Positions 3,071 to 61,197 of a DNA stretch of 64,000 bases are shown piece after piece. Both the position numbers and the translations under genes were made by a program. The notes under the pieces are model-generated. The model was not told where the DNA came from and made no database searches. It saw only the letters and a program-made list of their open reading frames with translations. Origin of the DNA: a virus. The stretch lies in the IMG/VR virus record IMGVR_UViG_3300045988_080038, positions 16,961 through 80,960 of that record; one strand, 5' to 3'. Each line of letters starts with the position of its first letter. The stretch's first letter is position 1.

Positions 3071-3304
3071 GAAAAGAGTCGGGTTTTTATGCTCAACTCT
3101 TTTCCTGACTGTCCACTCGTGCCGCTGCTAACAGCCTCGAATTGGGACATACAGCTCTTCCGTTCATGCACGGTGGAATCAGTCTGCACTATCAACTTGT
3201 GCTAGCCACACAGGGTGCTATACATCATAAGTTCAATCCCTGTGCGACTATTGAAAGTATACCTTATTTAAAAAGAAAAATCAATTAAAATGTTAAACTT
3301 TCTA

Positions 3305-7029: not shown

Positions 7030-7170
7030 GAAAAAAGCCCTCCTTTTGGGTACACAAAGGGAAGGCACTGTGATATAATATACCTGTACCCTTTGTGGTG
7101 CTGTTGGAGTCGAACTTTTTGATTGGTAGTCGGGAGTTCGGCTCCTTTTTTGCTATAATGTTTTGTCCGT

Positions 7171-12462: not shown

Positions 12463-12492
12463 ATGAAAAAAGCGCCTATCAAAGATAGACGC
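12463..12492 (-). terminator. Intrinsic terminator-like hairpin just upstream of tail-tip genes
   Basis: Minus strand AGCGTCTATcttgATAGGCGCT followed by TTTTT. Preceded by a TATAAT box (12510-12505). Confidence 0.4.
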
Positions 12493-12557
12493 TTTATGAT
12501 TATTCATTATACTTTTTTGGCGTAATATGATTCCATATTTTTACATATGATATTCAG

Positions 12558-15641: not shown

Positions 15642-15775
15642 AATAGATAACCTCCTTGTTGGTCGTCGGCATCTCCATAATATGCCAGAATCCTTGATTT
15701 ATAAAAACAGTAGGCAGGTGCATCAAGGTTTACACTTTTCGGCGGCCAACCTAGCCTACTGAATTTAACTAAATA

Positions 15776-16141: not shown

Positions 16142-16255
16142 AGAAAAATACCTGCCTTTCGTATAAAAGATGCCTTGAATGTATGTAAATCAACAGGCAG
16201 GCGGCAAGGCATTTCCGCTTGTCCCCCGTCGGGTAAGCCTGTTGGTTTTACCGTA

Positions 16256-16665: not shown

Positions 16666-19600
16666 TTACCATGCTGGACTAGGGTTTTTCCGCCGGTTGT
16701 TGTCGTTCTGGGCTTTTGTGACAGCTTTCGCAATAGCACGTCCGTCCAGATTGATCGTGTTGGAAATGTACTGCGGAGATGAGCTTCCACCGGCATTCAT
16801 GTTCATCATCGCCATGGCAACGCCCTGTGTTACCGCTTGTGTCATTTCTTCCTTACCTAGCCCAATGCTTCCGTTCGGAATGTTTCCGGTAATGCTGTCA
16901 GCGATACTCTTCATGGCCTGTTTATTGGTCAGCGGAAGGACTGCTTCCTTTCCGGCTTCACCGACACCAATCACAGATGCTGCATTGAAAAGACCGCCTT
17001 TGGCGTACCAGTCAACTCTCGAATTGTACCGCCACTTGTGGGTCTGCCCCTCTTGCCAATCAGTGTAATCCATGGATATGTGTGGAGTTCTGATGTTGAT
17101 TGACTCCATGCCGTTTCGGAGATTCTGCATAGCCGTTTGCCCGATACTGTACATATCTCCGAAATTTCGACTGATTGTATTAACTATACCGTTGATCGCA
17201 CCGCCTATGCTCGTGTCCATTGTTCCTCGGATGTAAGAAGATATATCCCTTCCCAGATTTTCCCATTTCTTGAGAGCGATTCTGTACTGGCTTCCAAAGT
17301 GGCTGCGGACGGTTTCGTCCATTCTGCCAAGCTCTGTACTTGCATCAACCTTCATCTGGCGGACATTTTTGGTTACTTCACGGGAAGAATTTCCCCAGTT
17401 CTTTGTCGCAGATATGCTTACACGGCTGAAGGATTTTTCAGCGCTTGTAGCTGCGGACGCAGAATTGATTTCAGTCTGTCCAGTAATGGTGTCCCAAGCC
17501 CCTTTAATTTTTGAACCGATTGAATCCCATGCTGTTTTGGTATTTGAACTAATAGTGTCCCACACGCCGGTTACAGTGTTCTTAATGTTTGTGAACGTAT
17601 CAATCACGCTTCCGATTCTGTCAGAAATTCCCTGTTTCAGTCCTGACATCAAAAATCCGCCGATCTCAGCAAAAACCGTAGACGGAGAATGAATACCAAA
17701 AAGGTTTTTAACACCGTTGATAATAGGGTCCGAGATGTTTGTTTTAAGCCATGTTCCAACAGTGGAAATCACGTTTTTAGCGCCGTTGTAAAGTCCATTG
17801 ATAAGGTTTGAGCCATGTGTGTAAAGCCAAGTTCCGGCAGTGCTGAATGCATTTTCTATTGCTTCCTTAGCTTTACCGGCAAATTCCGTAACAGTATCCC
17901 AATTTTGCCACAGAAGAAATCCACCGACAACAGCTCCGATAACAGCTAAGCCTATCGGACTGAACAGTACGCTGCCCAATGTAGAAAACGCTGTTGCCAT
18001 AGCTGGTGCAAAAGTTCCTGTAATCCAAGTTCCGATTGAACCAGCGAAGGCAGTTGCAGCTGGCCAAAGTTTGGTAGTTATAACTTCAAGGATTTTCGGA
18101 GCAATCTGTGTTGTTATGGTGGTCGGGATTGCTTTCAACTTGTCAACAGCTTCCAGAGCGTAAACTCCAACAGTTGTGCCTAATGTACTGGTTGAAAATG
18201 CAGTCGCTATTTTGCTGAGTGCTGTTCCCAGTAATGTTGCCGTAGCACTGGTCCCGGTCGGCAGTTTTCCCATAGCAACTAAGATAGATGATACCAGGGT
18301 ATCTGCCTTTGACACCAATCCTACACCGGCAAATGCAACTACAAACTTACCGGCTGTAGTTTCTCCTAATCCAGAAAAAATCCCGCCAAGAACATCCAGT
18401 AATACTGTTGCTAAATCCTTTAAATGGCTTCCCCAGTCTATCTGACTAAGGAATAGTCCGATGCCCCTTCCGAAGGATTCCCAGTCTGTTTCTCCTGCGA
18501 TATCAACCAGAGCATTCAGTAAGTTGGTGATGAAAGTGTTTAAGGATGTTCCGTTCTCTTTCCACTTGAACTTTCCGATAAAAGTATTGATTCCGTTGGA
18601 AATATTAGTTACCAATCCGCCCCAGTTGAATTTTTGTGTCCATGCAGCCAATGTCTGAAATGCACCGTTTAATCCGGTCGCAATCGTAGTTGCTATTTTG
18701 GAGAATGAAATTCTGCCAAAAGCTCCATTCATGGCATCAGCAACCGCAGTTCCCAACTGTTCCCAGCCAGTCAGACCGGCATTATTCTCTTTTGACATCT
18801 TCTGAACAAAACCGTCCAGAATATTCCAGCTTATCATAAAACCACTGCCAAGGAATTGGCCAAGGTTCGGCCAGTTAACTTCATCAATCATTCCACGAAG
18901 CCCCGTTGCCAGTTTGTTACCAATGTTTGTGAAGTCAATACCACCCGGGCCAATCAGAAGCTCAAAGGTGTTGACTAAAGTGTTGATACCGGCACCAACA
19001 GTACGCCCTAATCTATCCCAGTGAATGTTTTCGACAAGGCTGTTAAAAGATCGAGTAAAAGCATCACAAAATGCAGAGATCTTCGGTCCTACATTGCTCC
19101 AACTAATAACATCATAAATCTTCCGGATTCCGATATTAAGCATATCTGCAATGGTCTTTCCAAGTCCTTCCCAGTCATGGTTAAGAAAAGCTTTGCGGAT
19201 TTTTTCAGCCCATTTATTGATAGGGGTTTCTTCTTTGTTCAGAGCATCGTCTATCTGGTCCGTGATTCCGCCAAGACCCAATGACGGTGTTGTGCCGGTT
19301 CCAGTTTTACCCTTTCCGGTACTAGGTGTTGAACCGGATGAACTAGAATTATCTGTCAGCTGATTCAGTTCGTCAAATGGAAGAACAGAAAGAGCTTTCT
19401 TCAGAGTTTTTGCTGATGAAGTAGCATCGTCCAGCCCAGAAGCCGCTGCATCTCCGGCGTCCTGTAATCCGCTAAGGTCTGCTGCGGAATCTTCCAGTCC
19501 AGCAAGATCATTTACGACCCCGCTTGTGGAACCTTTGATTTTTTTACCCATCAGAACATACATGAAGTTACGGAATGTTTCCGCAGCCTGCATAAGTTTT

Positions 19601-21890: not shown

Positions 21891-22367
21891 TTATTTCGCT
21901 GTAGCTTTTTTCTGGTGATCTGTTGGCTTCTTCGGAGCTCTCTTCGGCTTGGTTGACATGTTCATGTCGTCCATGAGTGTCTCCAGACCGGCCAGTTTGA
22001 AAAAACCGTCTTCCTCCATTTGTTCAAGACACATGGCAAAAATACCGTAAAAGTTACCCTGCTCATCATCCTTATGTTCCTGAATGAATTGTGCTGCAAG
22101 TTTCTTCGCAGTTGCAAGATTCGGAACAGAACCGTCTGCATCCGGGTTGTCACCATGATACTGAAGAAGCCCTGCATAAAACACGGTTAATGCTGTGTTC
22201 GGAATATTTGCCATGCCGGAGATCATTTCTTCCGGCGTTTTGTCCACACCACCGCTTGTTGCCAGAAGCGTGTTCATTACACTCTTGACACAATCATCAT
22301 ACAAAGATGCTTCAATGCCGTATTCGAGTTTGTACTCTTTACTACCAATTTTTAAAAGCTTATACAT
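21891..22367 (-). CDS. Tail assembly chaperone (gpG-like)
   Basis: Position between the major tail and tape measure genes. Acidic 158-aa protein. Confidence 0.6.
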   Translation of the reverse strand: MYKLLKIGSKEYKLEYGIEASLYDDCVKSVMNTLLATSGGVDKTPEEMISGMANIPNTALTVFYAGLLQYHGDNPDADGSVPNLATAKKLAAQFIQEHKDDEQGNFYGIFAMCLEQMEEDGFFKLAGLETLMDDMNMSTKPKRAPKKPTDHQKKATAK

Positions 22368-23298: not shown

Positions 23299-23706
23299 TC
23301 ATTCACCGAGCAACTGCCCAGTGTAAATTCTTGTGTATCGGCTAACAAGCCGTTTGATGCTATCGTCAGCGTTCCCCATGAGTTCAGGACCGTAAGTTCT
23401 ACGAAATCCCATGCCAATCATGGACTGATGACTTTTTTCGTCAATTTGATATACTTTCGCAAGCGGAGCTGTACCTGCGGCGAAGCACTCAATCTGGATA
23501 GTTGGAACCGTGGCACATTCATCGCCTTCAAGGTCTCCTTCTGTCAGAACATTTCCCAACATGTAAAGTCTTGCATAGGTTTTCTTTCCAGATGCAAGAG
23601 TTTGGCTTCTGTCCATGGAAAAATTTCCTTTACCAACTACAGGTTCGATCGCTTTATTCCAGCGTTTGTATATCTCGGATATCGGGTTTTTTAATATTTC
23701 CGGCAT
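23299..23706 (-). CDS. Head-tail joining / tail terminator-like protein
   Basis: ORF track. Synteny directly upstream of the major tail region. Confidence 0.4.
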   Translation of the reverse strand: MPEILKNPISEIYKRWNKAIEPVVGKGNFSMDRSQTLASGKKTYARLYMLGNVLTEGDLEGDECATVPTIQIECFAAGTAPLAKVYQIDEKSHQSMIGMGFRRTYGPELMGNADDSIKRLVSRYTRIYTGQLLGE

Positions 23707-42370: not shown

Positions 42371-42441
42371 TCGGAATGGCAGGAATCGAACCTGCGACAC
42401 ATGACTTGTAAGTCACTGCTCTACCGCTGAGCTACATTCCG
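42371..42441 (-). tRNA. tRNA-Val(UAC)-like with a 6-nt anticodon loop
   Basis: Hand-folded: CGGAATG/CATTCCG acceptor, GCTC-AGCGGTA-GAGC D arm, GTGAC-TTACAA-GTCAT anticodon arm, GCAGG-TTCGATT-CCTGC T arm. Confidence 0.55.
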
Positions 42442-42629
42442 TGCCGCTTACCACGGCTGATCACCTCGGTAAATGAATGAGATGATTTCCATTTTGCACA
42501 ACATATAAATGATATGCTTTTCGTACTGCCCAGCAGTCCTCAGGATAAACATCAACCTTTTCCCATGGGTTTAATCCGCTTGAACCATAGGCCGCCCGTG
42601 CACTGACAGCATAGAACGAACGAATTAAT

Positions 42630-42701
42630 TTGCAGGAGACGGATTCGAACCGCCGTTCTCAAGGATATGAGCCTTGTGAGATTCCACTTCTCCATCCTGC
42701 C
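42630..42701 (-). tRNA. tRNA-Met/Ile2 (anticodon CAT)
   Basis: Hand-folded cloverleaf: CAAGG-CTCATAT-CCTTG anticodon arm, GGCGG-TTCGAAT-CCGTC T arm. Position 1-72 is a G.A mismatch. Confidence 0.7.
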
Positions 42702-43000
42702 TTAACCCGGATTGTACCGGGTTAGCAATAGGTTTATCGTGTTATGCTTTCCACTAGACTGTTTTCATCCGTGCCAGTCCCACGGAGTTGTTTCGGAGGA
42801 TTATTCCTGAAATGCCTCTTGAAAACTCCCTGTCGTCAACGTGCACTCATTGGCGACATATTCAACTCAGAGGCAGTACCGAACGGGAAGTTGCTTTTTC
42901 AATCCGGCTACGCCGTTACGTACCTTCTGGAAAACAACCCACATACACACATTCGGCAGTTTTTTCTGCCCATTAAACGGATGGGCAGCTTTGGGAGAAA

Positions 43001-43074
43001 TGGAAGCTCTGGGGCTCGAACCCAGGACCGACCGGTTATGAGCCGGTTACTCTAACCAACTGAGCTAAGCTTCC
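43001..43074 (-). tRNA. tRNA-Met/Ile2 (anticodon CAT)
   Basis: Canonical cloverleaf: GGAAGCT acceptor, GCTC-AGTTGGTTA-GAGT, ACCGG-CTCATAA-CCGGT, CTGGG-TTCGAGC-CCCAG. Confidence 0.85.
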
Positions 43075-43289
43075 TGAGTAGCAAAAAGATACAGGGTCGC
43101 TGCGATATCTGTCTTTTTACTACTGTTGCAGTTCTTGACCGCCAGCTGCAACAAAGGTTGAAACCACCCGGAACATTTGACTGTTCCTTTAGTCATCGCC
43201 GTTGCGATAGGTGGTTAAAGGGTATTTCATGAAAAAAGGAAAAAGAAAATCCAATCTGCATCAAAGGGAAGATGAAGCCCGATGCAGAG

Positions 43290-43361
43290 CGGCGCATGTG
43301 GGATTCGAACCCACGCATGCCGGAGTCAAAGTCCGGTGCGTTACCGCTTCGCCAATGCGCT
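43290..43361 (-). tRNA. tRNA-Gln (anticodon TTG)
   Basis: CCGGA-CTTTGAC-TCCGG anticodon arm, AAGCGGTAA D loop, GTGGG-TTCGAAT-CCCAC T arm, G73. Closely parallels E. coli tRNA-Gln. 1-72 unpaired (A.C). Confidence 0.8.
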
Positions 43362-45049: not shown

Positions 45050-45517
45050 TCAACTTACTATTTCCACTGGATAACCTAGCTTTTCTTCAAGCTCAGCTAC
45101 CGTTATTTTACGTGGCTTATTTAATTTGATTTTCACATCTTGAACCGCACCATCTTTGTTTTTAGCAATCCCGCGCCCAGTGTATATATCAGTTTCTTCA
45201 TTAGCGTATACACCGAGATGATTGTATCCATATGTACGGCACCACCTAGCAGCCAAATCAGAAATTTTCATCAATTCTTCCAACTCATTCCCGAATAAAT
45301 GAGAATATAATATAGCTCGATCATACATTTCCTGTGTTACTGCTGACAGCGCAATCACGCTTTTATACGGACTTCCGATAAAACGGAAAAATCTGCATGA
45401 TTCCATTACTTTTTCGCCTTTCGGAAGTGCAAAGCCTTGAGAAATTGCCATCTTAAGAAGCTTCGCTGATTCAACATCGCTTTCTGTGATAACACACTTA
45501 TTTGTAAAGTCTATCAT
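45050..45517 (-). CDS. Hypothetical protein
   Basis: ORF track. Start codon overlaps the resolvase stop. Confidence 0.45.
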   Translation of the reverse strand: MIDFTNKCVITESDVESAKLLKMAISQGFALPKGEKVMESCRFFRFIGSPYKSVIALSAVTQEMYDRAILYSHLFGNELEELMKISDLAARWCRTYGYNHLGVYANEETDIYTGRGIAKNKDGAVQDVKIKLNKPRKITVAELEEKLGYPVEIVS

Positions 45518-46101
45518 TACTGTTCCCCTCCCAACATTTTATATAGTGTTCCTCTTGACACTCCCATGATTTCGGCAAACTGAACTTTGGTAATTTCCCC
45601 AGCCTGCCATCTTTGCTTTGTTTTCTCGAAGAGTTCTTTATCTACCTCTTTTTTTGCTCGTCCTTTATATTTCCCTTGAGCTTTTGCAATCGCAATTCCT
45701 TCTTTCTGTCTCTGACGAATATTTTCACGCTCTCTCTGAGCTACGTATGAAAGAAGCTGCAATACAATATCAGCAATCAGAGTCCCGGTCAAATCTTTGT
45801 TTTGCGTGGTGTTAAGTAATGGCATGTCCTGAACAACGATATCTGCTTCAATCTCTTTTGTAATTTTTCTCCACTCAGCTATAATTTCTTCGTAATTCCT
45901 TCCAAGTCGATCAATGGAATGGATCACCAGTACGTCGCCTTTTTGAAGGGAAGCAATCATCTTCTGGTACTCAGGACGGTTGAAATCCTTGCCGGACTTC
46001 TTATCCATATAAATTTTATCGACGCCTTCTTCTCTCAATGCCTCCATCTGTCTCGCTTCGTTCTGCTCTACTGTCGATACTCTTGCATATCCTATCTTCA
46101 T
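45517..46101 (-). CDS. Small serine recombinase (resolvase/invertase family)
   Basis: MKIGYARVSTVEQNEARQ catalytic N-terminus. C-terminal HTH ITKVQFAEIMGVSRGTLYKML. Confidence 0.85.
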   Translation of the reverse strand: MKIGYARVSTVEQNEARQMEALREEGVDKIYMDKKSGKDFNRPEYQKMIASLQKGDVLVIHSIDRLGRNYEEIIAEWRKITKEIEADIVVQDMPLLNTTQNKDLTGTLIADIVLQLLSYVAQRERENIRQRQKEGIAIAKAQGKYKGRAKKEVDKELFEKTKQRWQAGEITKVQFAEIMGVSRGTLYKMLGGEQ

Positions 46102-46485: not shown

Positions 46486-47229
46486 TTATGCCCTAACCAG
46501 TCCTTGTCCCTGTAGTAACAGTCGAAATGTTTCCTTGCCTTTTATAGTGATATATGTTTGAACATTTGAATACCCATAAGGCGTTGAAAAATCTTTCATC
46601 TGGAAAAGCCCTGACTTTCGATGCTGTTCGTATGGTTTTATGATATTGTGCCGGTCTCGATAAATATACCCGTTATCTGACAGCCATTTCGTAAGCGTCT
46701 TGGGTGGCATGTGAAATTCTTTCGCAGCGTCCCGAAATGTTGTGAGCAGTCTATTGTCTACAAGAGAATCGAAGTACTCCGCTTTGGGCTTCTGCTCCTG
46801 CACTTTCTGTTCAAGTAACTGCTTTTCCTGCTGTTCTTCAATCCATCTTTTAGCTCGCTCTATCGGATCAGCTATCTGGTAAGAATCTTGTTTCTGACCA
46901 ACTTCATACTTTCCGGTTTTACGGATAGAAGGAAGGACTTCTGCTGTTACCCAATGTTTAAATCTTTTTGCAGAATCGAGTTTGCTTGATAGTATAAGTG
47001 AAAACAAACCGCTCTCATTTATCACGATTGTTTCCTGTACTCCGCTGTTTGAAGGGAGGCTGCATTTCAGGGCGTCCTCTTTATCGACATGATTAGCAAT
47101 GGCGTTTCGTTCTTTTACGTATCCTAATGCTTTTGCTACATCGTTTCCAACGAACCAAGGATTTCCGTCTATCGTCACTGTTCTTACGTTTCCAAATTCT
47201 GGATTGCTAAAAATCATCATTTCATTCAT
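46486..47229 (-). CDS. Antirepressor (Bro-N + KilAC domain), second copy
   Basis: FSNPEFGNVRTVTIDGNPWFVGNDVAKALGY Bro-N motif. C-terminal TFRDAAKEFHMPPKTLTKWLSDNGYIY (KilAC-like). Confidence 0.75.
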   Translation of the reverse strand: MNEMMIFSNPEFGNVRTVTIDGNPWFVGNDVAKALGYVKERNAIANHVDKEDALKCSLPSNSGVQETIVINESGLFSLILSSKLDSAKRFKHWVTAEVLPSIRKTGKYEVGQKQDSYQIADPIERAKRWIEEQQEKQLLEQKVQEQKPKAEYFDSLVDNRLLTTFRDAAKEFHMPPKTLTKWLSDNGYIYRDRHNIIKPYEQHRKSGLFQMKDFSTPYGYSNVQTYITIKGKETFRLLLQGQGLVRA

Positions 47230-47597
47230 TCTTCATACCTGCCTTTCTTGGTATTGCCTTATTTTGTGTTGGCAGAGAAACCGTTAAGGCTTACGGCTTG
47301 TCGTGTTGCAATCACTATCTCTGCCATGTGAAAAGGGCCTTTTTGTTATTTTATTTGCTTTGGGGGCTCACCCGGCTCCTGGTGGCTTTCCCTCCAAGGG
47401 GGTCCCCGTCTCATCCGTACGCTATCCGGTCAGCCCGCCGCCCCATGGGACCCGCTGCACCGGATCACACTGTTGTTGTTCGGCCTTCGGCAGTAGTCAG
47501 AGGAAGTTGATGCCGCTTTTCGTTCGTCATATTGCACAAATTTTCTCGTGCTGTTCATTGTACATTTTAAGTACACCCTATTTATACATTACGGTAA

Positions 47598-47658: not shown

Positions 47659-48252
47659 TCACAGCTTCGGCCGTTCCATCTCTGGAAGCTCCAGCGCGTC
47701 CTTGTACCGGTCCGCGATCTGCTGCGCTGACTGCTGCGGGATACCTTGCACATGATCCGCCTGGACCGGTGCTGTCTCTGCCATGCCGTATGCAGCTTTC
47801 GCAACGAAGATCAGGTTTGCATTTGTTCCGGGTTGGTTATGCAGTCTATTAAGCGTGCAGTTTTTGCAAATATCGAACCATTTTTTCACCGTGTTGCTAT
47901 GTGCTGTGGCGGTTCTATAGTCCCCGCGCATCCAATCGCTAAACGTTGAGCGGTTAATCCCTACCAGAAAACTAAATACTTCCAGAGTCGGTAAAACATG
48001 ATACTTACTGCACAGCCTTACAAACACACTAAACATATGATCTAATAATTCTATATCATCGTTACTGGGTTTCTGTATGTGATCAGCAATATAAAATATC
48101 ATATCAACAAAACTATCAGCTACTTCTTTTCTGTAATTCTCACTATCAGGTGATACACATAACACTGTGTTAATATATTCATCAGCATATATATTAATAT
48201 TACTCAAGTATACTTCTGTTTCCTTCTCTGTCTTGATAGTATTATCTTTCAC
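47659..48252 (-). CDS. terS: Terminase small subunit (tentative)
   Basis: VGINRSTFSDWMRGDY HTH-like segment and NANLIFVAKAAYGM motif, as seen in Firmicute phage TerS. 9 kb away from terL. Confidence 0.5.
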   Translation of the reverse strand: MKDNTIKTEKETEVYLSNINIYADEYINTVLCVSPDSENYRKEVADSFVDMIFYIADHIQKPSNDDIELLDHMFSVFVRLCSKYHVLPTLEVFSFLVGINRSTFSDWMRGDYRTATAHSNTVKKWFDICKNCTLNRLHNQPGTNANLIFVAKAAYGMAETAPVQADHVQGIPQQSAQQIADRYKDALELPEMERPKL

Positions 48253-48296
48253 TGTATCACCTCACTTTACAACGTTAATCTGTTAATTTAGTAAAA

Positions 48297-48400
48297 TAAA
48301 AAGGACGATACCAAACCGGTTAGCAATCGAAGAACACGCCCAGCAGCTACGATCAGCGCCGGAAGTTCCGTAAATGCTTTTCAGTTTTTATCGTCCTTTG
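48297..48400 (-). promoter_or_regulatory. Large stem-closed structured element ending in a T-run, 45 nt upstream of terS
   Basis: 11-bp closing stem AAAGGACGATA/TATCGTCCTTT around about 78 nt (internal palindromes CGGAACTTCCG, AACCGGTT), followed on the minus strand by TTTTTATTTT. Confidence 0.4.
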
Positions 48401-48891
48401 TTTAAAAATCGTAAATGTATTTGTTTATCTGCCATTTACAATAGCACATGTAAGTCATTAATGCAAGCATAAATTTATTTTTATTGCTCAATGCATAATA
48501 AAAGACCTATTGATAAAATAATCCATTACAACTCAATATACAACGTTATAGAGCTATATATATTATAATATAGTGTATCTAAGTATATATTAATAAACTC
48601 AGAATCTAGGAGGGGCTTAAAAGATGTTATAATACGGTACTGTATAGAATTAATTAATAGAGGATTGTATATATAATATAATTATAGGGCGTTTTGGCAC
48701 AGAAAAAGCCAGGCTTCCGGCGTCTGATCCGGTTACCTGGCTGAATGATTTTTTATTGATTTTCGATTGGCTCGCCCCTCCTGAGTTCCTCGTTAATGAC
48801 ACGATAGCACATTTTACAAAAACCTGTCAAGCCAAAAGCAAAAAATATTTTTCTTGACAAAACAAACATTTGTGTGCTATGAATAATTTAA

Positions 48892-48980
48892 CAGACTTCG
48901 GCGGCGGGTCTGTTCTCCCCTCGTTAGCCGCCACAAAAAAGAGTTTAAGCCCCTGGAGATTATCCAAGGGCTTTTTTTTC
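48892..48980 (+). ncRNA. Candidate small RNA (about 90 nt) with own promoter and terminator
   Basis: TTGACA (48854-59), 18 nt, TGcTATGAA (48875-83). Alternative stems ACAGAC/GTCTGT and GGCGGC/GCCGCC. Terminator AAGCCCCTGG...CCAAGGGCTT + T8 (48947-48979). Confidence 0.35.
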
Positions 48981-48981
48981 T

Positions 48982-49157
48982 TTCCACAATGGGGCTATTA
49001 TTAATCATTAACATTCTAACTTTACATTCAGGCAAAAACGCCTGTTCCACAATGTGACTATTAATGTTTTGCTAACTTAATAACTAATGATCCAATTTTA
49101 CATTCGTCATAAAAATGACGTTATAGTTATAATAATATAATCATTGTCAGCTGTCAA
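48982..49157 (-). ncRNA. Candidate RNA of about 170 nt with two hairpin+handle repeat units, own promoter
   Basis: Minus strand TTGACA (49157-52), 17 nt, TATTAT (49134-29). Then CGTCAT-TTTT-ATGACG + AATGTAAAAT...CATTGTGGAA, then CAGGC-GTTTTT-GCCTG + AATGTAAAGT...CATTGTGGAA. Ends at the shared hairpin at 48947-73. Confidence 0.35.
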
Positions 49158-49160
49158 TAA

Positions 49161-49853
49161 TCACATTAAAAACACCGGGTTTCCGCAGCTGTCAATTTCG
49201 GTCGTGACTTCTTGCCCTGCATCAAGATACGCCGTTTTTACATCTTCGAAAATTCGCCGTTCTCTGTCCACCGTATATTTTTTGTGAAGTGTGTAAACAG
49301 TGCCGGAGATTTCCGGAAGTACCGGTGCATAAGCTGGCAAATCCAACACCACTTTTTTCGGCGGCAAAATGTCAACAACTTCGATCTTATCAATTATCAA
49401 CAAATCCTCATGTCGGCCCAGGTTTGGAAACCGTCTCGGATACTTCAGCATTTTATAAATTATGTCAACTTCCTTTTCGTTTTTTGGCTGAACGTGTAAA
49501 CGCAAATTCAAATCTGCGACAAAATCAACTAAAACCGGCGTATTAACCCAGCCTGTGAACCCCGGGCCGTTTTTCACTCGGACGGGAAAACGCTTTTTAA
49601 ATTCTTCCGTTTCTGATCCGGCATAAGCTCCACCCTTCCAGCGTTTTGTAAACTCCTGTTCGTTCATCGTTCCGCTTCCGGCTATTGATATGTTCATGTC
49701 GTGCCAGCTACTCCACCGGCACAAAAAATGGACCATCCCGGCAACTGTAGAAAAAGGCGGCAGTGGGTACGTATATACCCTTTTCCCGGCGTGCGAAAAA
49801 GGCGTTGCGAAAACGCCCTTTTCCATGTATCCCTCTATTAGCACTGTATTCAT
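49161..49853 (-). CDS. Cas5-like RAMP protein (solitary)
   Basis: GVFATPFSHAGKRVYTYPLPPFSTVAGMVHFLC (Cas5 N-terminal PPPST-G type motif), WKGGAYAGSE, NLGRHEDLLIID, GTVYTLHKKYTV. Start MNTV is ATGA-coupled to the upstream ORF. Confidence 0.45.
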   Translation of the reverse strand: MNTVLIEGYMEKGVFATPFSHAGKRVYTYPLPPFSTVAGMVHFLCRWSSWHDMNISIAGSGTMNEQEFTKRWKGGAYAGSETEEFKKRFPVRVKNGPGFTGWVNTPVLVDFVADLNLRLHVQPKNEKEVDIIYKMLKYPRRFPNLGRHEDLLIIDKIEVVDILPPKKVVLDLPAYAPVLPEISGTVYTLHKKYTVDRERRIFEDVKTAYLDAGQEVTTEIDSCGNPVFLM

Positions 49854-50938: not shown

Positions 50939-51358
50939 AGTCTATTTTCGTGTATTTGTCAATAGTCTATTTCCATGTATTTTATTTATTTTTTATACTC
51001 CATGATATCAGACGGTTGACAGTTCAATAATTTGCATAATGTGCAGATGACTTCACAAGTTACATTTTCGTTTTTAGTCAGCTTTGCTACTGTATTAGAA
51101 TGTAATCCGTTGTTTTTTAACCACTGTTTATTAAGTTCTTTCTTTTTTAATACGTTCCATAGCTTTGAAAAATCAATATAACCATTCTTTCCATAATCGG
51201 CCATTGTTTTTCACCTCCTTATTTATAAATATATGATAATAGATTTTTGGCATTAAGTCAATGTCTATTTTTATGTACTATTTGCACAAAAATAAGCTGT
51301 GTTATATGGTCTATTTTCGTGTATCTTGTGTATTTACTTTTAGTCTATTATCGTGTAT
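50939..51358 (+). repeat. Five direct copies of a 17-bp motif (A/G)GTCTATTTTCGTGTAT flanking the HTH gene
   Basis: Copies at 50939-55, 50964-80, 51262-78, 51308-24 and 51342-58, each with 0-4 mismatches to the consensus. Confidence 0.6.
50986..51204 (-). CDS. XRE/Cro-type HTH regulator (72 aa)
   Basis: LKKKELNKQWLKNNGLHSNTVAKLTKNENVTCEVICTLCKLLNCQPSDIMEY (HTH_26-like). Confidence 0.7.
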   Translation of the reverse strand: MADYGKNGYIDFSKLWNVLKKKELNKQWLKNNGLHSNTVAKLTKNENVTCEVICTLCKLLNCQPSDIMEYKK

Positions 51359-51553: not shown

Positions 51554-51633
51554 TAGCCGAAACGGTCAGAAATGACCGTCCACCGGGAACGCCCCACCGG
51601 TGCTGATGATGGCAGGGCAGAAAGGAAAACAAA

Positions 51634-57403: not shown

Positions 57404-57908
57404 ACAAACTGTGCTTTCTCAAAATTTCCACTTCGTGTTCGCACAACTTTATCTGGCATTCATTGTACAACTGCCGTGCAAGAGTACCGATAGTCGGTTT
57501 TCCTTCATTTGCCTGATGCACATATTTGTTACTCTTTTCCACTACGTTCATCAGCTGTTCCGGTTCAAAGTCGTATGCTCTATGCAGTGCCAAAAGCAAT
57601 GTTACACTGTTCTCAACATTTGCCCAGTCCTGTCCGTCCGTAAATCCTTGTTCGAAACCGGCGTTGTAGCTTTTCTCTCTTTCTTCTTCCCTTGCGTTTT
57701 CTACAACTTTGTTCAAGGCACTCACAGTTCTACTGATCCCGTCTTCCTTGCCTTTCTGGTACGCTTTTTCAATCTCTTCATTTCTGGCTGCCAAAACTTT
57801 TTCTCTGGACTCGTCAAACATCCGCTGCATTCTTTCAATCTTTGCAGCTGAATAAGGCATAGTTACCGGTTTCCCTGTGAATTTTCTTTTTAACACCACG
57901 CTGTTCAT
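57378..57908 (-). CDS. Hypothetical protein
   Basis: ORF track; 4-nt overlap with the DnaC-like gene. Confidence 0.5.
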   Translation of the reverse strand: MNSVVLKRKFTGKPVTMPYSAAKIERMQRMFDESREKVLAARNEEIEKAYQKGKEDGISRTVSALNKVVENAREEEREKSYNAGFEQGFTDGQDWANVENSVTLLLALHRAYDFEPEQLMNVVEKSNKYVHQANEGKPTIGTLARQLYNECQIKLCEHEVEILRKHSLFEEGDPYD

Positions 57909-58756
57909 TTTCCGCCTCCCATAATCCCTGCTATCATTTGTTGTTTCATCGTTTCTGCTATATGTTCCCGGACAGATTCTTCCGGAAACGGAATCTCAAG
58001 TGACCGCTCCAGAATCCGGTTGGTGATACGTTCATCATAATTTAGTCGAGAAATACAGTAATTACTTGTAAAAATCGTGATTTTTCGGCTTGTATAGCGT
58101 CCGTCGATAATTTCATAATATTTTTCATTTACCCAGTCCTTTTCGGTTTCTGTGCCGAAATCATCAATGATTAGAATATCTGCTCTGGCAAGTTCATCAA
58201 TCAACTGTTCTTCCGTTTTATCCGGACTGTATCTTTTTCCCCATGTGGACTTGATCTCGTCAAGGATTTTCATAGACGTTGAAAATTTTACCTGTTTCTG
58301 ATGTTTTTCAATCAGTTCATTCGCCAGGCTGCATACCATTCGGGTTTTTCCAGAGCCTTTCGTACTAGAATAAAAATATAGCCCAATTCCCTGTTTTTGC
58401 ATATCGCTGATATTTTCCATCCAGTAGTGAACAGCTTTCGCAGCCTGTCTTATTGTTTCCTGGCTCTCCGGCAGCTGGTATACTGCCGACCGGAAGTTAT
58501 TAAACATTGCGTCCTTGTAGATATCTGGAATCTCTGCAAATTTAAGTTGATTTCTATGAATCGTTTTTTTACGGATACCGCAGGAACACTCCTGGCAGTA
58601 CGGAACTCCATATTGATCACGGCTCCATACCCATCCGGAATCATCGCATAAAGGGCAATGTGTCTGAACCTCCGTCATCACCGAGTGTTCCAAACGGGAT
58701 AAGCGGTTCGACTTTTCTTTGAGTTTTTGCACCAGATCCATGTTTCCTGTCCCCAT
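57905..58756 (-). CDS. DnaC/IstB-like AAA+ helicase loader with N-terminal zinc-finger-like Cys cluster
   Basis: Walker A STKGSGKTRM, Walker B ADILIIDDFGTE, HCPLCDDSGW...CQECSCG. GGAGGG RBS. Confidence 0.75.
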   Translation of the reverse strand: MGTGNMDLVQKLKEKSNRLSRLEHSVMTEVQTHCPLCDDSGWVWSRDQYGVPYCQECSCGIRKKTIHRNQLKFAEIPDIYKDAMFNNFRSAVYQLPESQETIRQAAKAVHYWMENISDMQKQGIGLYFYSSTKGSGKTRMVCSLANELIEKHQKQVKFSTSMKILDEIKSTWGKRYSPDKTEEQLIDELARADILIIDDFGTETEKDWVNEKYYEIIDGRYTSRKITIFTSNYCISRLNYDERITNRILERSLEIPFPEESVREHIAETMKQQMIAGIMGGGK

Positions 58757-60075: not shown

Positions 60076-61197
60076 TTATTTTAATCCAACTTCAATTCCA
60101 TTGATTTTCAGTTCTCCATTTACCGGAATTACAAGAGATGGAACGCCGTTTATTTCTTTCAGTTCAATCAGAGCAATTTTATCTGGCTGGATGCAGATTG
60201 TTGCATCTGGTGTTACAATTTTTGCAGTTTTTGAATTATGAATATTGTCAAGAGCAACAGGCTCATTGCTGAAATACATTTCCCAGTTTTCTTTGAAATC
60301 CGACAACTTCTCGTCTGGGACTCCGCAATATCCAAAAATCTGTTCCATTTCATCACATGACACGGTTACCATCTCCGGGCTGTCTTTCTTCTGTTCTCTT
60401 ACTTCCTGCAAAGATTCAACCAGACTTTCCGCGAAATTGAATGTTGTATTTCCTTCGAAATTGTCCATGATAAAATCTGAAAAGACATTGATCTCGTTGC
60501 CGGGTATACGGGGAATTGGTGCGCCAAGAACGTTTTCAATGAAGTCGGGATGAATATTCTTTATGTTTTTGTTGAAATACAAGGTTCCATGAATATCAGT
60601 GCTTCTGTCATTGAATATAGGGAATAAGAATCCTGTTTCTGGTCTTGAGACTACCCAATCACGAATTCTGTCTTTGATGTTATTTTCAGCCACATCATAG
60701 CTAAGCCCAGCCTTTGAAAGATTTACTGGACAAATGCTGCACAGAATGTGTTCATAAATTTCTTCTGATGCATCGTGCATTTCGGTTCCATCAGAAGCTT
60801 TTCCTGGAATGTCATATACTGCATGAATGAGAACTATGTAGTAATTTTCGTGATAATCGTAATTTTCAATCACTTTGTCGTAGAACTCATCCAAAAGCTC
60901 ATCATTTTTAAGCTTACTTGCTCTGATCCGCATAAGAAATTCCTGTGTTCCACCCTCTTTTTCCTGTGATAATGGGAAATCAAGGTTCATAAGGTTTTTT
61001 CCAAGTCTGCCAGACATGGTTTTCTTGAAAATATCAAAATACTTAAACATTTCTTCCTCTGGAAGAGACATGAATGCTTCTTTAATTTTGGTTTTCTTGT
61101 TCTTTTCTGCGTCCACATAACAACCACAAATGCGTGTGATTGTGCAATTGGCTGGAGTAAACTGTTTCTTAATTTCTGCGATTTCTTTCTTATTCAT
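60076..61197 (-). CDS. DUF4317-like protein
   Basis: MNKKEIAEIKKQFTPANCTITRICGCYVDAEKNKKT N-terminus, recalled as the DUF4317 family. Confidence 0.55.
   Translation of the reverse strand: MNKKEIAEIKKQFTPANCTITRICGCYVDAEKNKKTKIKEAFMSLPEEEMFKYFDIFKKTMSGRLGKNLMNLDFPLSQEKEGGTQEFLMRIRASKLKNDELLDEFYDKVIENYDYHENYYIVLIHAVYDIPGKASDGTEMHDASEEIYEHILCSICPVNLSKAGLSYDVAENNIKDRIRDWVVSRPETGFLFPIFNDRSTDIHGTLYFNKNIKNIHPDFIENVLGAPIPRIPGNEINVFSDFIMDNFEGNTTFNFAESLVESLQEVREQKKDSPEMVTVSCDEMEQIFGYCGVPDEKLSDFKENWEMYFSNEPVALDNIHNSKTAKIVTPDATICIQPDKIALIELKEINGVPSLVIPVNGELKINGIEVGLK

What the first reader, a model, noticed from the sequence alone, without database searches (positions are those of the whole stretch)
48982..49157. 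Promoter-driven pair of hairpin + AATGTAAA handle units directly downstream of the cas5-like gene (degenerate mini-array or crRNA decoy?)
A good minus-strand promoter starts 4 nt after the cas5-like stop: TTGACA-17-TATTAT. It precedes two tandem units. Unit 1 is CGTCAT-TTTT-ATGACG, AATGTAAAAT, about 40 nt, CATTGTGGAA. Unit 2 is CAGGC-GTTTTT-GCCTG, AATGTAAAGT, about 28 nt, CATTGTGGAA. Transcription should end at a hairpin shared with a convergent sRNA. The two 16-nt hairpins differ in sequence but keep the same position, size and T-rich loop, which is covariation-like. The flanks (10 nt and 9 nt) are conserved. GTGGAA...ATGTAAA resembles the 3' part of clostridial type I-B repeats as I remember them (...GTGGTATGTAAAT). 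A stem-loop followed by a short handle is the geometry of a crRNA processing site. Next to a lone Cas5, which binds the 5' handle, this looks like a decoy or minimal guide locus.
Basis: partly seen in the sequence, partly recalled or inferred. Interest (0 to 1): 0.7.

Follow-up and report, generated by a model that had tools for sequence, protein, structure and literature searches.

The report
Phage guide RNAs silencing host CRISPR
Next to a stray Cas5-like gene, this gut phage carries two small CRISPR-RNA look-alikes copied from the host's own cas-regulating RNA; their guide parts match the promoter of the host's type I-B cas operon, so the phage most likely turns the host's CRISPR machinery against its own expression.

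Summary
On the minus strand, window 48947-49157 holds a strong promoter, two tandem units and a terminator.

Each unit mimics a mature crRNA: a hairpin, a 5' handle (A)ATGTAAA, a short pseudo-spacer (28 and 16 nt), and the first 21-23 nt of a CRISPR repeat. The parts match the type I-B repeat GTATTAATAGAAACATTGTGGAATGTAAA[T/G] of gut Clostridia such as Ruminococcus sp. AM36-2AA. Arrays with this repeat carry 14 spacers against this phage, mostly with a CCA PAM.

The units are homologues of a host creR-like gene, a degenerate mini-CRISPR divergent from cas6. Pseudo-spacer 1 matches a CCA-flanked site next to the -35 box of the cas6 promoter in one host variant, at all 15 pairing positions of nt 1-17. 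Its only mismatches are at 6, 12 and 18, the bases Cascade flips out. Pseudo-spacer 2 matches the same site in a second variant.

This is a type I-B viral "Cracr" array, a kind described in a 2024-26 preprint. It is linked to an orphan Cas5 homologue, as AcrIB3 is in Listeria. The unusual features are the linkage (80 of 80 phage loci) and the covarying hairpin that replaces or splits the pseudo-repeat. Expression and activity are untested.

The parts
49161..49853 (-). Orphan viral Cas5 homologue (vCas5), 230 aa counted from Met7. The mechanical ORF runs to 49871.
   Evidence: It matches TIGR01895 Cas5t/Cas5b at E 4.9e-18 over model positions 2-202 of 217, though the score of 65.5 is below the 96.7 cut-off. 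It is 28-35% identical to bona fide host Cas5b, E 1e-18 to 1e-32. The AF2 model has pLDDT 90 and its best PDB matches are all Cas5, led by the I-B Cas5 8fcj_A at E 2e-8. No other cas gene or array lies in the window.
49129..49157 (-). Promoter of the RNA locus: TTGACA, 17 nt, TATTAT.
   Evidence: It scores 11/12 and is the best site in the scan. It is conserved in all close relatives. The predicted start lies 0-2 nt before hairpin 1; this is my inference from the spacing.
49105..49120 (-). 5' hairpin 1, CGTCAT-TTTT-ATGACG. It stands where the upstream half of pseudo-repeat 1 would be.
   Evidence: In 26 of 28 unique phage contexts a stem of at least 5 bp abuts AATGTAAA, with 12 distinct stem sequences. 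Random 24-mers do this 8% of the time. The hairpin is absent from host creR genes and from the two prophage-borne units L037 and L039.
49096..49104 (-). 5'-handle mimic of unit 1, A-ATGTAAAA. The 8-nt handle expected from the host repeat is ATGTAAAT/G.
   Evidence: It equals the last 8-9 nt of the host I-B repeat. The block is invariant across viral units and host creR genes.
49068..49095 (-). Pseudo-spacer 1, 28 nt: TTGGATCATTAGTTATTAAGTTAGCAAA. Its guide part is nt 1-17 (49079-49095).
   Evidence: It matches CCA + TTGGAACATTAATTATT about 100 nt upstream of cas6 in 10 'type A' host loci, at 15 of 15 non-flipped positions. The mismatches are at 6, 12 and 18 only. It is 25/27 identical to the host creR type A gene.
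49045..49067 (-). 3'-handle mimic of unit 1, which is the 5' part of pseudo-repeat 2: ACATTAATAGTCACATTGTGGAA.
   Evidence: It aligns to nt 1-23 of the repeat GTATTAATAGAAACATTGTGGAA|TGTAAAT.
49029..49044 (-). Hairpin 2, CAGGCG-TTTT-TGCCTG. It is inserted in pseudo-repeat 2 at the position of the expected Cas6 cut (GTGGA|ATGTAAA).
   Evidence: The position follows from comparing the sequence with the intact repeat. Relatives carry the variant CAGGTG-GAAAA-CGCCTG, which keeps the pairing.
49020..49028 (-). 5'-handle mimic of unit 2, A-ATGTAAAG.
   Evidence: It is identical to the repeat end ATGTAAAG of the type A and B host arrays.
49004..49019 (-). Pseudo-spacer 2, 16 nt: TTAGAATGTTAATGAT. It is 30 nt long in most relatives.
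   Evidence: Nt 1-11 are identical to CCA + TTAGAATGTTAT[T/C]TATT about 100 nt upstream of cas6 in 'type B' host loci. The mismatches are at 12, 14 and 18. The full-length versions in relatives mismatch only at 6, 12 and 18.
48982..49003 (-). 3'-handle mimic of unit 2: TAATAATAGCCCCATTGTGGAA. It is truncated at the Cas6-cut position.
   Evidence: It shares AATAGCCCCAT..TGGA with pseudo-repeat 2 of host creR, whereas the CRISPR repeat itself has AATAGAAACAT.
48947..48973 (.). Bidirectional intrinsic terminator hairpin. It ends the crRNA-like transcript and a convergent plus-strand small RNA candidate.
   Evidence: The scan finds a terminator-like site with an 11-bp stem. It is conserved in relatives, with changes in the stem.
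50986..51204 (-). Context: an HTH_26 (Cro/C1-type) gene at the head of the small-gene operon HTH, 90 aa, 97 aa, 114 aa, vCas5. Its position resembles that of an Aca regulator.
   Evidence: It matches Pfam HTH_26 at E 9.7e-12. In distant homologue loci an HTH gene overlaps the start of vCas5.

Best explanation
The locus is a phage-encoded, two-guide array of crRNA-like anti-CRISPR RNAs, the kind Liu et al. call 'Cracr'. [quoted passage not shown]

Shown by sequence:
- Each unit has the layout of a mature crRNA: a 5' handle, a pseudo-spacer and a 3' handle.
- The handles copy the I-B repeat of the bacteria whose arrays carry spacers against this phage.
- The units are homologous, over their whole length, to a host creR-like gene that lies divergent from cas6.
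- Nt 1-17 of each pseudo-spacer are complementary to a CCA-flanked site that abuts the -35 box of the cas6 promoter. Unit 1 matches this site in one host variant and unit 2 matches it in another.
- Mismatches are confined to every sixth base, and complementarity stops after nt 17.

Inferred:
- The RNA is transcribed from its own promoter and ends at the shared terminator.
- Host Cas5/Cas7/Cas8b (Cascade) load the RNA in competition with real crRNAs.
- The partial match lets Cascade sit on the cas6 promoter without Cas3 cutting. That tightens the host's own autorepression and lowers Cas levels, while the RNAs also soak up Cas proteins.
- vCas5 probably acts alongside as a defective Cascade subunit, as shown for the Cas5 homologue AcrIB3 in Listeria.
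- The GC-rich hairpins that cap each handle are a phage innovation. They most likely stabilise the ends of the RNA or make its maturation independent of the normal Cas6 site.
For: Host CRISPR system
- A scan of one genome per species for GGAATGTAAA-N50-66-GGAATGTAAA returned more than 120 stretches.
- Those stretches that include cas genes show the order cas6-cas8b-cas7-cas5-cas3-cas4-cas1-cas2.
- The best match to the viral pseudo-repeats is GTATTAATAGAAACATTGTGGAATGTAAAT of Ruminococcus sp. AM36-2AA.

The host system targets this phage
- Of 234 unique spacers from 11 arrays with this repeat, 14 match the window.
- Their PAMs are CCA nine times, CCG twice, and CCT, ACA and TCA once each.

Host creR and its target
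- I reached the cognate host loci L246 and L248 through the host Cas3, not through the viral sequence.
- In both, a solitary pseudo-repeat/pseudo-spacer/pseudo-repeat gene lies on the strand opposite cas6.
- Its pseudo-spacer matches CCA + 17 nt next to the -35 box. The mismatches fall only at position 6 (L246) or at 6 and 12 (L248).

Host variants that match the window's own units
- A metagenome scan gave 28 such creR genes in I-B loci (some of the contigs truncated), in three variants.
- Window unit 1 matches the type A target at 15 of 15 non-flipped positions.
- Window unit 2 matches the type B target at 12-13 of 14.
- The targets lie about 100 nt upstream of cas6. In L255 the matched stretch ends 7 nt before the promoter-like site TTGACT-17-TATTTT.

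Pattern across phages
- Of 16 unique pseudo-spacers from the window's phage clade, 12 mismatch their best target only at positions 6, 12 and 18.

Homology of the whole unit
- Viral units and host creR genes align with 72% mean column identity.
- They share AATAGCCCCAT, which the CRISPR repeat lacks.

Precedent in the literature
- In CreR/CreA, pseudo-repeat 1 keeps the 5' handle and pseudo-repeat 2 keeps the 3' handle (bioRxiv 10.1101/2023.03.10.532045).
- Viral Cracr arrays carry pseudo-spacers aimed at cas-promoter variants of related strains. A prophage I-E array with 24- and 21-nt pseudo-spacers has been validated (bioRxiv 10.1101/2024.10.29.618823).
- AcrIB3 is a Cas5 homologue that enters Cascade (bioRxiv 10.1101/2023.06.24.545427).

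Linkage to vCas5
- All 80 viral loci with vCas5 at 55-98% identity carry a unit immediately downstream.
- Two prophage lineages at 37-40% identity also carry one.
Against: - There are no expression, processing or activity data of any kind.
- The metagenome pattern was built from the viral seed, so recovering host creR genes with similar seeds is partly by construction. However, the target sites, their PAM and the matches at nt 13-17 were not imposed, and L246/L248 were found independently.
- Window unit 2 has only a 16-nt pseudo-spacer and one non-flipped mismatch at position 14, so it may be weakened.
- The host in which I first identified the repeat and matching spacers (type C, L118/L246) has a promoter site that the window's units match only 9/10 in the seed, with a mismatch at position 8. 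So this phage's guides may not work against every host that targets it.
- The hairpin removes the natural upstream half of the repeat, so it is unclear how a clean 8-nt handle would be produced.
- In Listeria, AcrIB3 blocks DNA binding by Cascade. If vCas5 does the same, it would also disable Cracr-guided repression unless the two act on different pools of complex.
- For the two other phage clades (pseudo-spacers TTGAAATAGTAC.. and TCAAACTGGTAA..) I found no cognate target.
Confidence: 0.75

Rival explanations
1. Pure decoy (Racr-type). The RNAs only soak up Cas6, Cas7 or Cas5, or vCas5 itself, into dead-end complexes. The match to the cas6 promoter would then be a leftover of descent from the host creR gene, with no targeting role in the phage.
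For: The handles are the most conserved parts of the units. Pseudo-spacer length is variable, at 16, 19, 26, 28 and 30 nt. Racr RNAs act by sequestering Cas proteins (PMC10651486), and Liu et al. also propose competition for Cas proteins as part of Cracr action.
Against: Across diverged phages, the non-flipped positions 1-17 stay complementary to a host target, while positions 6, 12 and 18 vary freely; position 6 shows all four bases. Different units track different host promoter variants. That pattern indicates ongoing selection for pairing within Cascade, not mere relic similarity.
Confidence: 0.13
2. Prophage housekeeping rather than counter-defence. The units act as an extra copy of the host CreR so that a lysogen with self-targeting spacers keeps its I-B system low and tolerates the prophage. 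The molecular mechanism would be the same but the biological purpose different.
For: Host arrays carry many spacers against this phage, so lysogens would face autoimmunity. The window has temperate-phage features: a serine recombinase/invertase, a Bro/Ant antirepressor and HTH regulators. Related units sit in prophages of Bariatricus and Clostridium sp. AF15-17LB.
Against: This cannot be distinguished from the main explanation by sequence. A strong constitutive-looking promoter and the linkage to an Acr-like Cas5 fit either purpose.
Confidence: 0.08
3. A genuine virus-borne mini-CRISPR array whose spacers target competing phages.
For: Such arrays exist in viruses and use the host's Cas proteins (PMC11656645).
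Against: The repeats are degenerate and split, not identical to the host repeats. The spacers are 16-30 nt, against 34-39 nt in host arrays. The two spacers are paralogous, are homologous to host creR, and match a host promoter only partially. The region has no match in GenBank phages.
Confidence: 0.02
4. DNA-level repeats bound by a protein, for example terminase (cos/pac) or recombinase sites upstream of the small-terminase gene.
For: The region lies about 700 nt upstream of a weak terS-like ORF at 47659-48252 (phrog_606, E 5e-4).
Against: The hairpin stems change sequence while keeping their pairing (12 stems). The locus has its own promoter and terminator. It travels with vCas5 into unrelated genomic contexts and is homologous to a host crRNA-like gene.
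Confidence: 0.01

Closest known systems
Viral Cracr RNAs and Cracr arrays (Liu et al., bioRxiv 10.1101/2024.10.29.618823)
   Same: The element is encoded by a phage outside any CRISPR-Cas locus. It has the pseudo-repeat/pseudo-spacer/pseudo-repeat layout and a shortened pseudo-spacer. It is homologous to a host CreR. Its match to a PAM-flanked site at the cas promoter is partial and PAM-proximal. Its two guides are aimed at promoter variants of related strains. It sits next to an anti-CRISPR-type protein gene.
   Different: This one is subtype I-B; the 30 arrays in the preprint were I-C, I-E or I-F, and I-B appeared only among single candidates. The upstream half of pseudo-repeat 1 is replaced by an unrelated, covarying hairpin, and the middle pseudo-repeat is split by one at the expected Cas6 cut. 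The protein partner is a Cas5 homologue rather than AcrIF24. Nothing has been tested experimentally here.
Host CreR/CreA regulatory mini-CRISPRs (bioRxiv 10.1101/2023.03.10.532045)
   Same: The architecture is the same and, in this case, the sequences are demonstrably homologous (72% column identity). The target site and PAM at the cas6 promoter are the same. Mismatches fall at positions 6 and 12.
   Different: The host gene sits divergent from cas6 inside the CRISPR-Cas locus, occurs as a single unit, keeps the natural repeat half ACATTTTGGAATGTAAAT, and has a 32-36-nt pseudo-spacer. The phage copies are tandem, capped by hairpins, shorter, and lie outside any cas locus.
AcrIB3, the Cas5-homologue anti-CRISPR of Listeria mobile elements (Katz et al., bioRxiv 10.1101/2023.06.24.545427)
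   Same: vCas5 is also a full-length orphan Cas5b homologue, about 30-38% identical to real Cas5. It lies in a small-gene operon with an HTH gene on a mobile element.
   Different: vCas5 forms its own clade, separate from the Listeria orphan Cas5 (31% identity). The Listeria locus L283 has no crRNA-like unit downstream. The activity of vCas5 is unknown.
Racr / solitary repeat units (Camara-Wilpert et al. 2023, PMC10651486)
   Same: Both are phage RNAs that mimic host CRISPR repeats and are often encoded beside acr genes.
   Different: A Racr is a single repeat with no spacer and, in the I-F case, no functional 5' handle. Here both handles and a targeting pseudo-spacer are present, and no intact repeat exists.

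Membership tests
Viral Cracr (crRNA-like anti-CRISPR RNA) | Encoded on a virus or plasmid, outside a CRISPR-Cas locus. | tested here: met
   The window has no array and no other cas gene. Eighty IMG/VR viral contigs carry the same locus.
Viral Cracr (crRNA-like anti-CRISPR RNA) | Degenerate pseudo-repeat/pseudo-spacer/pseudo-repeat layout in which pseudo-repeat 1 keeps the 5' handle and pseudo-repeat 2 keeps the 3' handle. | tested here: met
   The units carry (A)ATGTAAA[A/G] and ATTAATAG..CATTGTGGAA, to be compared with the repeat GTATTAATAGAAACATTGTGGAATGTAAAT.
Viral Cracr (crRNA-like anti-CRISPR RNA) | Pseudo-spacer corresponds to that of a host CreR/CreA, with at least 9 PAM-proximal matches. 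| tested here: met
   Unit 1 matches host creR type A at nt 1-11 and 13-17. Unit 2 matches type B at nt 1-5 and 7-12. The whole units align.
Viral Cracr (crRNA-like anti-CRISPR RNA) | PAM-flanked, partially complementary target at a cas (or creT) promoter. | tested here: met
   CCA + 17 nt lies about 100 nt upstream of cas6 and ends 7 nt before the promoter-like site TTGACT-17-TATTTT. The same PAM flanks the phage protospacers.
Viral Cracr (crRNA-like anti-CRISPR RNA) | Cas-dependent maturation, repression of cas transcription, and rescue of phage or plasmid from interference. | not testable with these tools
   This needs RNA-seq, reporter assays and interference assays.
Racr / solitary repeat unit | A single, near-complete copy of the host repeat with no adjoining spacer-like guide. 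| tested here: not met
   There is no intact repeat. The first pseudo-repeat is truncated to 9 nt, the middle one is split by a 16-nt hairpin, and the last one is truncated. Pseudo-spacers that carry a target match are present.
Virus-borne CRISPR mini-array | Repeats (near-)identical to host repeats, and full-length spacers that match other viruses. | tested here: not met
   The repeats are degenerate. The spacers are 16-28 nt, against 34-39 nt in host arrays, are paralogous to each other, and match a host promoter only partially. There is no GenBank phage match.
Cas5 of type I-B (Cas5b/Cas5t) | Sequence profile match above the curated cut-off. | tested here: not met
   TIGR01895 scores 65.5 bits against a cut-off of 96.7 (E 4.9e-18). 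Pfam Cas_Cas5d scores 21 against 23. The protein is a homologue but not an equivalog.
Cas5 of type I-B (Cas5b/Cas5t) | Cas5 (RAMP) fold. | tested here: met
   The AF2 model has pLDDT 90.2. The top 28 PDB matches are Cas5 subunits or Cas5-family proteins, led by the I-B Cas5 8fcj_A at E 2e-8 and TM 0.54-0.58.
Cas5 of type I-B (Cas5b/Cas5t) | Encoded within a cas7-cas5-cas3 operon. | tested here: not met
   The gene is orphan in the window and in all homologue loci examined.
AcrIB3-type Cas5-homologue anti-CRISPR | Full-length Cas5 homologue on a mobile element, away from cas loci, forming a clade apart from real Cas5. | tested here: met
   vCas5 has its own clade in a neighbour-joining tree. 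Its genomic contexts are phage or prophage.
AcrIB3-type Cas5-homologue anti-CRISPR | Belongs to the Listeria AcrIB3 lineage. | tested here: not met
   vCas5 is 31% identical to the Listeria orphan Cas5 P0101. In the tree that protein groups nearer to real Cas5b than to vCas5. I did not have the published AcrIB3 sequence itself, so I identified P0101 as AcrIB3-like from its context.
AcrIB3-type Cas5-homologue anti-CRISPR | Incorporates into Cascade and blocks I-B interference. | not testable with these tools
   This needs co-immunoprecipitation and interference assays.

The most novel reading that the evidence does not exclude
vCas5 may not be merely a poison subunit. It could be the dedicated partner of the hairpin-capped RNAs. 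In this reading it recognises the hairpin-plus-handle junction and perhaps cuts at the hairpin base, as Cas5d does in type I-C. It would then nucleate a chimeric Cascade, made of viral Cas5, a viral guide and host Cas7/Cas8b, that is reserved for silencing the host cas operon. That would make the pair a minimal, Cas6-independent 'bring your own Cas5 and guide' hijacking module. The tight linkage (80 of 80 phage loci), the replacement of the Cas6-recognition half of the repeat by a covarying hairpin, and the invariant G-AATGTAAA junction are compatible with this, but none of them demonstrates it.
Probability: 0.15. Interest if true: 0.85.

Novelty: new variant of a known kind. Interest (0 to 1): 0.62.

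Why it matters
The locus gives a fully specified, testable case of a recently proposed strategy: phages reprogramming the host's own Cascade to shut down cas expression. The case is set in abundant human-gut Clostridia and their roughly 80-kb phages.

All the pieces were recovered from sequence alone:
- the host I-B repeat;
- host spacers against the phage, and their PAM;
- the host creR gene and its promoter target, in three variants;
- the matching phage guides.

The every-sixth-base mismatch pattern is an evolutionary footprint of Cascade pairing. It could be used to find more such RNAs and to predict which host variant each phage can disarm.

The constant pairing with a Cas5 homologue and the hairpin-capped handles suggest a protein-RNA anti-CRISPR module that has not been described. 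They also suggest a compact design for Cas6-independent type I guide RNAs.

Tried and rejected
- **Rfam.** Neither the gathering-threshold scan nor the E-value scan places a known family on the locus. The only hits are sub-threshold noise around the terminator.
- **GenBank phages.** A blastn search with 48253-49160 finds nothing.
- **Type I-C reading.** I considered Cas5d with a hairpin and an 11-nt handle. The protein matches the I-B Cas5 profile, not the Cas5d profile, and the matching arrays sit beside I-B operons.
- **First target searches.** Looking for pseudo-spacer targets in the first 120 host loci gave only chance-level hits. Those 8-kb stretches rarely reach the region upstream of cas6. 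The search worked only after I fetched complete loci through the host Cas3.
- **Conserved internal hairpin in the pseudo-spacer.** The candidate was GTTAGC..GCTAA. Support was inconsistent between clades, and the conservation is better explained by pairing to the target.
- **Co-capture of vCas5 and the RNA from a host cas5-cas3 intergenic region.** Some host loci do carry a lone pseudo-repeat there. However, vCas5 is an old, separate clade, and the RNA is homologous to the creR gene upstream of cas6 instead.
- **A generic scan for solitary crRNA-like genes in the first set of host loci.** It returned nothing.
- **Targets for the other two phage clades.** I found none.
- **Type III toxin-antitoxin (ToxIN-like) repeats and terminase sites.** I considered both and dropped them, for the reasons given under the rival explanations.
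Full report
**1. What is in the sequence**

The minus strand of window 48935-49160 reads as follows. The stop codon of a 230-236-aa ORF lies at 49163-49161. It is followed by:
- TTGACA (49157-49152), a 17-nt spacer, and TATTAT (49134-49129);
- hairpin 1, CGTCAT-TTTT-ATGACG (49120-49105);
- AATGTAAAA (49104-49096);
- a 28-nt stretch (49095-49068);
- ACATTAATAGTCACATTGTGGAA (49067-49045);
- hairpin 2, CAGGCG-TTTT-TGCCTG (49044-49029);
- AATGTAAAG (49028-49020);
- a 16-nt stretch (49019-49004);
- TAATAATAGCCCCATTGTGGAA (49003-48982);
- AG, a run of eight A;
- an 11-bp terminator hairpin (48973-48947) and a T-run.

The promoter scores 11/12 and is the best in the region, and the terminator is also called by the scan. 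The composite motif GAATGTAAA-N20-50-CATTGTGGAA occurs twice, against 0.00 expected. The transcript folds with z = -4.3.

The stretches between the motifs are paralogous between the two units. That already argued against ordinary, unrelated spacers.

**2. The neighbouring gene is an orphan Cas5 homologue**

- The ORF matches the type I-B Cas5 profile TIGR01895 over almost its whole length (E 4.9e-18), but below the curated cut-off.
- It is 28-35% identical to real Cas5 proteins from I-B operons.
- A confident AlphaFold model (pLDDT 90) finds Cas5 subunits as its best PDB matches, led by an I-B Cas5.
- The window has no array and no other cas gene.
- In a neighbour-joining tree the protein and its relatives form their own clade. 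That clade is separate from real Cas5b and from an orphan Listeria Cas5 that, from its context, is AcrIB3-like.
- It is the last gene of a small-gene operon headed by an HTH_26 protein. In distant relatives an HTH gene overlaps its start.
- Katz et al. showed that AcrIB3, a Listeria Cas5 homologue, enters I-B Cascade and blocks it. They also counted 358 orphan viral cas genes in IMG/VR.

**3. The RNA locus travels with the gene**

- All 80 IMG/VR loci that encode the protein at 55-98% identity have one or two units directly after the stop codon.
- So do prophages of Clostridium sp. AF15-17LB (40% identity) and Bariatricus massiliensis (37%).
- One lineage at 51% identity lacks it, as do the more distant orphan Cas5 loci.
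- In phages, a stem of at least 5 bp abuts AATGTAAA in 26 of 28 unique contexts. There are 12 different stem sequences, for example CGTCAT/ATGACG, CATCA/TGATG, CAGGTG/CGCCTG, CAATTAC/GTAATTG and CAGTTAC/GTAACTG. The random expectation is 8%.
- The two prophage versions have no such hairpin. They carry the natural repeat half instead (..CCATATTGGAATGTAAAA).

**4. The conserved blocks are the two ends of a real type I-B repeat**

- Most of these stretches are CRISPR arrays. Those that include cas genes show the order cas6-cas8b-cas7-cas5-cas3-cas4-cas1-cas2. Many are from Lachnospiraceae and relatives.
- The repeat of Ruminococcus sp. AM36-2AA is GTATTAATAGAAACATTGTGGAATGTAAAT.
- The viral block ATTAATAGTCACATTGTGGAA corresponds to repeat nt 3-23, which forms the crRNA 3' handle.
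- The viral ATGTAAA[A/G] corresponds to the last 8 nt, which form the 5' handle.
- Between units 1 and 2 the pseudo-repeat is complete, but hairpin 2 interrupts it at the point where an 8-nt handle would be cut off (GTGGA|ATGTAAA).
- Each unit is therefore a mimic of a mature crRNA, with a short pseudo-spacer. Real spacers in these arrays are 34-39 nt.

**5. These hosts target this phage**

- Two spacers of the AM36-2AA array match window 47446-47481.
- Across 11 arrays with this repeat, 14 of 234 unique spacers match the window. Examples are 38/38 at 23646-23683, 37/37 at 57769-57805 and 34/34 at 8828-8861.
- Their PAMs are CCA nine times, CCG twice, and CCT, ACA and TCA once each.

**6. The pseudo-spacers are guides to the host cas promoter**

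Using the host Cas3 as a handle, I fetched complete host loci. In L246 (Cas3 100% identical to that of AM36-2AA) and in L248, a solitary crRNA-like gene lies on the strand opposite cas6. It consists of a TATAAT box, then TTACATTTTGGAATGTAAAT, a 32-36-nt pseudo-spacer, and TATAATAGTTCCATATTGGAAAG.

Its pseudo-spacer matches CCA + TTAGAATATTAACCATT next to the -35 box upstream of cas6. The only mismatch is at position 6 in L246, and at positions 6 and 12 in L248. This is the CreR/CreA arrangement of Li and co-workers.

The single unit of phages L023/L025 matches the same site at 16 of 17 positions.

A metagenome scan for host-type creR genes with related seeds returned 28 such genes in I-B loci, some of them on truncated contigs, in three variants.
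- Window unit 1 (TTGGATCATTAGTTATT..) matches the type A target (CCA TTGGAACATTAATTATT) at all 15 pairing positions of nt 1-17. The mismatches are at 6, 12 and 18 only.
- Window unit 2 (TTAGAATGTTAATGAT) matches the type B target (CCA TTAGAATGTTAT[T/C]TATT) exactly at nt 1-11. The mismatches are at 12, 14 and 18.
- The targets lie about 100 nt upstream of cas6. In L255 the matched stretch ends 7 nt before a promoter-like TTGACT-17-TATTTT.
- Of the 16 unique pseudo-spacers of this phage clade, 12 mismatch their best target only at 6, 12 and 18. Position 6 shows all four bases.

In Cascade every sixth guide base is flipped out and does not pair; this is established knowledge of type I complexes. 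The pattern is therefore a footprint of selection for Cascade-mediated pairing. Complementarity ends after nt 17, which fits binding without Cas3 cleavage, as described for CreR.

Viral units and host creR genes align over their whole length at 72% column identity. They share AATAGCCCCAT where the CRISPR repeat has AATAGAAACAT. The phage units therefore derive from creR, not from an array.

A caveat: the metagenome pattern contained the seed. The target sites, the PAM and nt 13-17 were not imposed, and L246/L248 were found independently.

**7. Mechanism**

*Shown:* the architecture, the homology to creR, the complementarity and PAM at the cas6 promoter, the host's targeting of the phage, the linkage to vCas5, and the hairpin covariation.

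*Inferred:*
- The RNA is transcribed from its own promoter.
- Host Cas proteins load it, in competition with crRNAs.
- The resulting complex sits on the cas6 promoter and deepens the host's autorepression.
- vCas5 adds a second hit, as a defective subunit.

This is what Liu et al. report for viral Cracr RNAs. They include a validated prophage I-E array whose two pseudo-spacers (24 and 21 nt) match the CreR elements of two strains, and they note frequent synergy with co-encoded Acr proteins.

*Unresolved:*
- How the handle is freed from the hairpin, and what the hairpin is for. It could stabilise a 5'-terminal end, bypass Cas6, or serve as a site for vCas5.
- How a Cascade-poisoning vCas5 and a Cascade-dependent guide would coexist.

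**8. Comparison and novelty**

The element meets every sequence-level criterion for a Cracr (see the membership table). It fails the criteria for a Racr/solitary repeat and for a true mini-array. Compared with published Cracr arrays (I-C, I-E and I-F) it is new in three ways:
- it is subtype I-B;
- it has hairpin-replaced and hairpin-split pseudo-repeats;
- it is consistently paired with a Cas5 homologue that is not of the Listeria AcrIB3 lineage.

I rate it a new variant of a known kind. The interest is moderate to high for specialists, because the whole host-phage circuit is specified and directly testable. It is not a new principle.

Noticed in passing
window 51555-51621 (+): Rfam places a type II hammerhead ribozyme here, above the gathering score (40.6 bits against 37). 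It lies in the divergent early region, about 350 nt from the HTH gene of the vCas5 operon.
   Followed up: no
window 15692-15761 (-) and 16173-16244 (-): There are two copies of the int-alpA RNA motif (Rfam RF02996, 55 and 44 bits), flanking a 121-aa ORF in the structural-gene region.
   Followed up: no
window ~48885-48985 (+): This is a candidate small RNA convergent with the crRNA-like transcript. It has TTGACA (48854-48859), 18 nt, then TATGAA, and a conserved GGCGGCG...CGCCGCC stem with a variable interior. It ends at the shared terminator with a run of eight T. It is conserved in both phage clades and matches no Rfam family.
   Followed up: partly
window ~48700-48830 (-): This is a second small RNA candidate: TTGACA (48830), 18 nt, then TATCGT with a TG extension, and a terminator at 48721-48708. 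The RNA contains ..GGAACTCAGGAGGGG.. and is conserved in clade-2 phages (L036 ~6990-7090). Overall, the 900-nt gap between vCas5 and the terS-like gene looks like a cluster of small RNA genes.
   Followed up: no
L246 5660-5757 (-); L248 ~5620-5700 (-); L250-L282: Host type I-B loci of gut Clostridia carry a creR-like mini-CRISPR divergent from cas6. It occurs in at least three variants, and in each the promoter target has co-varied with the pseudo-spacer. Mismatches between guide and target fall only at positions 6 and 12.
   Followed up: yes
L064 ~5560-5600, L105 ~4850-4885, L107 ~3120-3150: Some host I-B loci have a lone pseudo-repeat (..AATAGNNACATTNTGGA with a degenerate tail) between cas5 and cas3, just upstream of the cas3 ribosome-binding site. 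It could be a Cas6 binding site or part of another regulatory crRNA-like RNA.
   Followed up: partly
window 47446-47481, 60103-60138, 57769-57805, 57985-58020, 23647-23682, 21985-22020, 17691-17724, 15077-15110, 12484-12517, 10831-10866, 9813-9847, 8828-8861, 3096-3130: These are protospacers matched by spacers of host I-B arrays with the cognate repeat, mostly with a CCA PAM. The phage is under heavy I-B CRISPR pressure. The site at 47446-47481 is hit by two different spacers of one array and lies in an ORF-poor stretch.
   Followed up: yes
L036 6731-6760 and clade-2 loci L191-L239: The clade-2 pseudo-spacer begins TTGAAATAGTAC, which is nearly the 5' end of a related I-B repeat (GTTGAAATAGTTAC..). 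So this 'spacer' may itself derive from a repeat. I found no cognate host target for it.
   Followed up: partly
window 42371-43361 (-): There is a cluster of four tRNA genes inside the phage genome, downstream of a DNA invertase (45517-46101) and a Bro-N/ANT antirepressor (46486-47229).
   Followed up: no
L041 10820-11980: In an unrelated, AT-rich type I-B locus a full CRISPR array of about 18 repeats sits between cas5 and cas3, in addition to the array after cas2.
   Followed up: no
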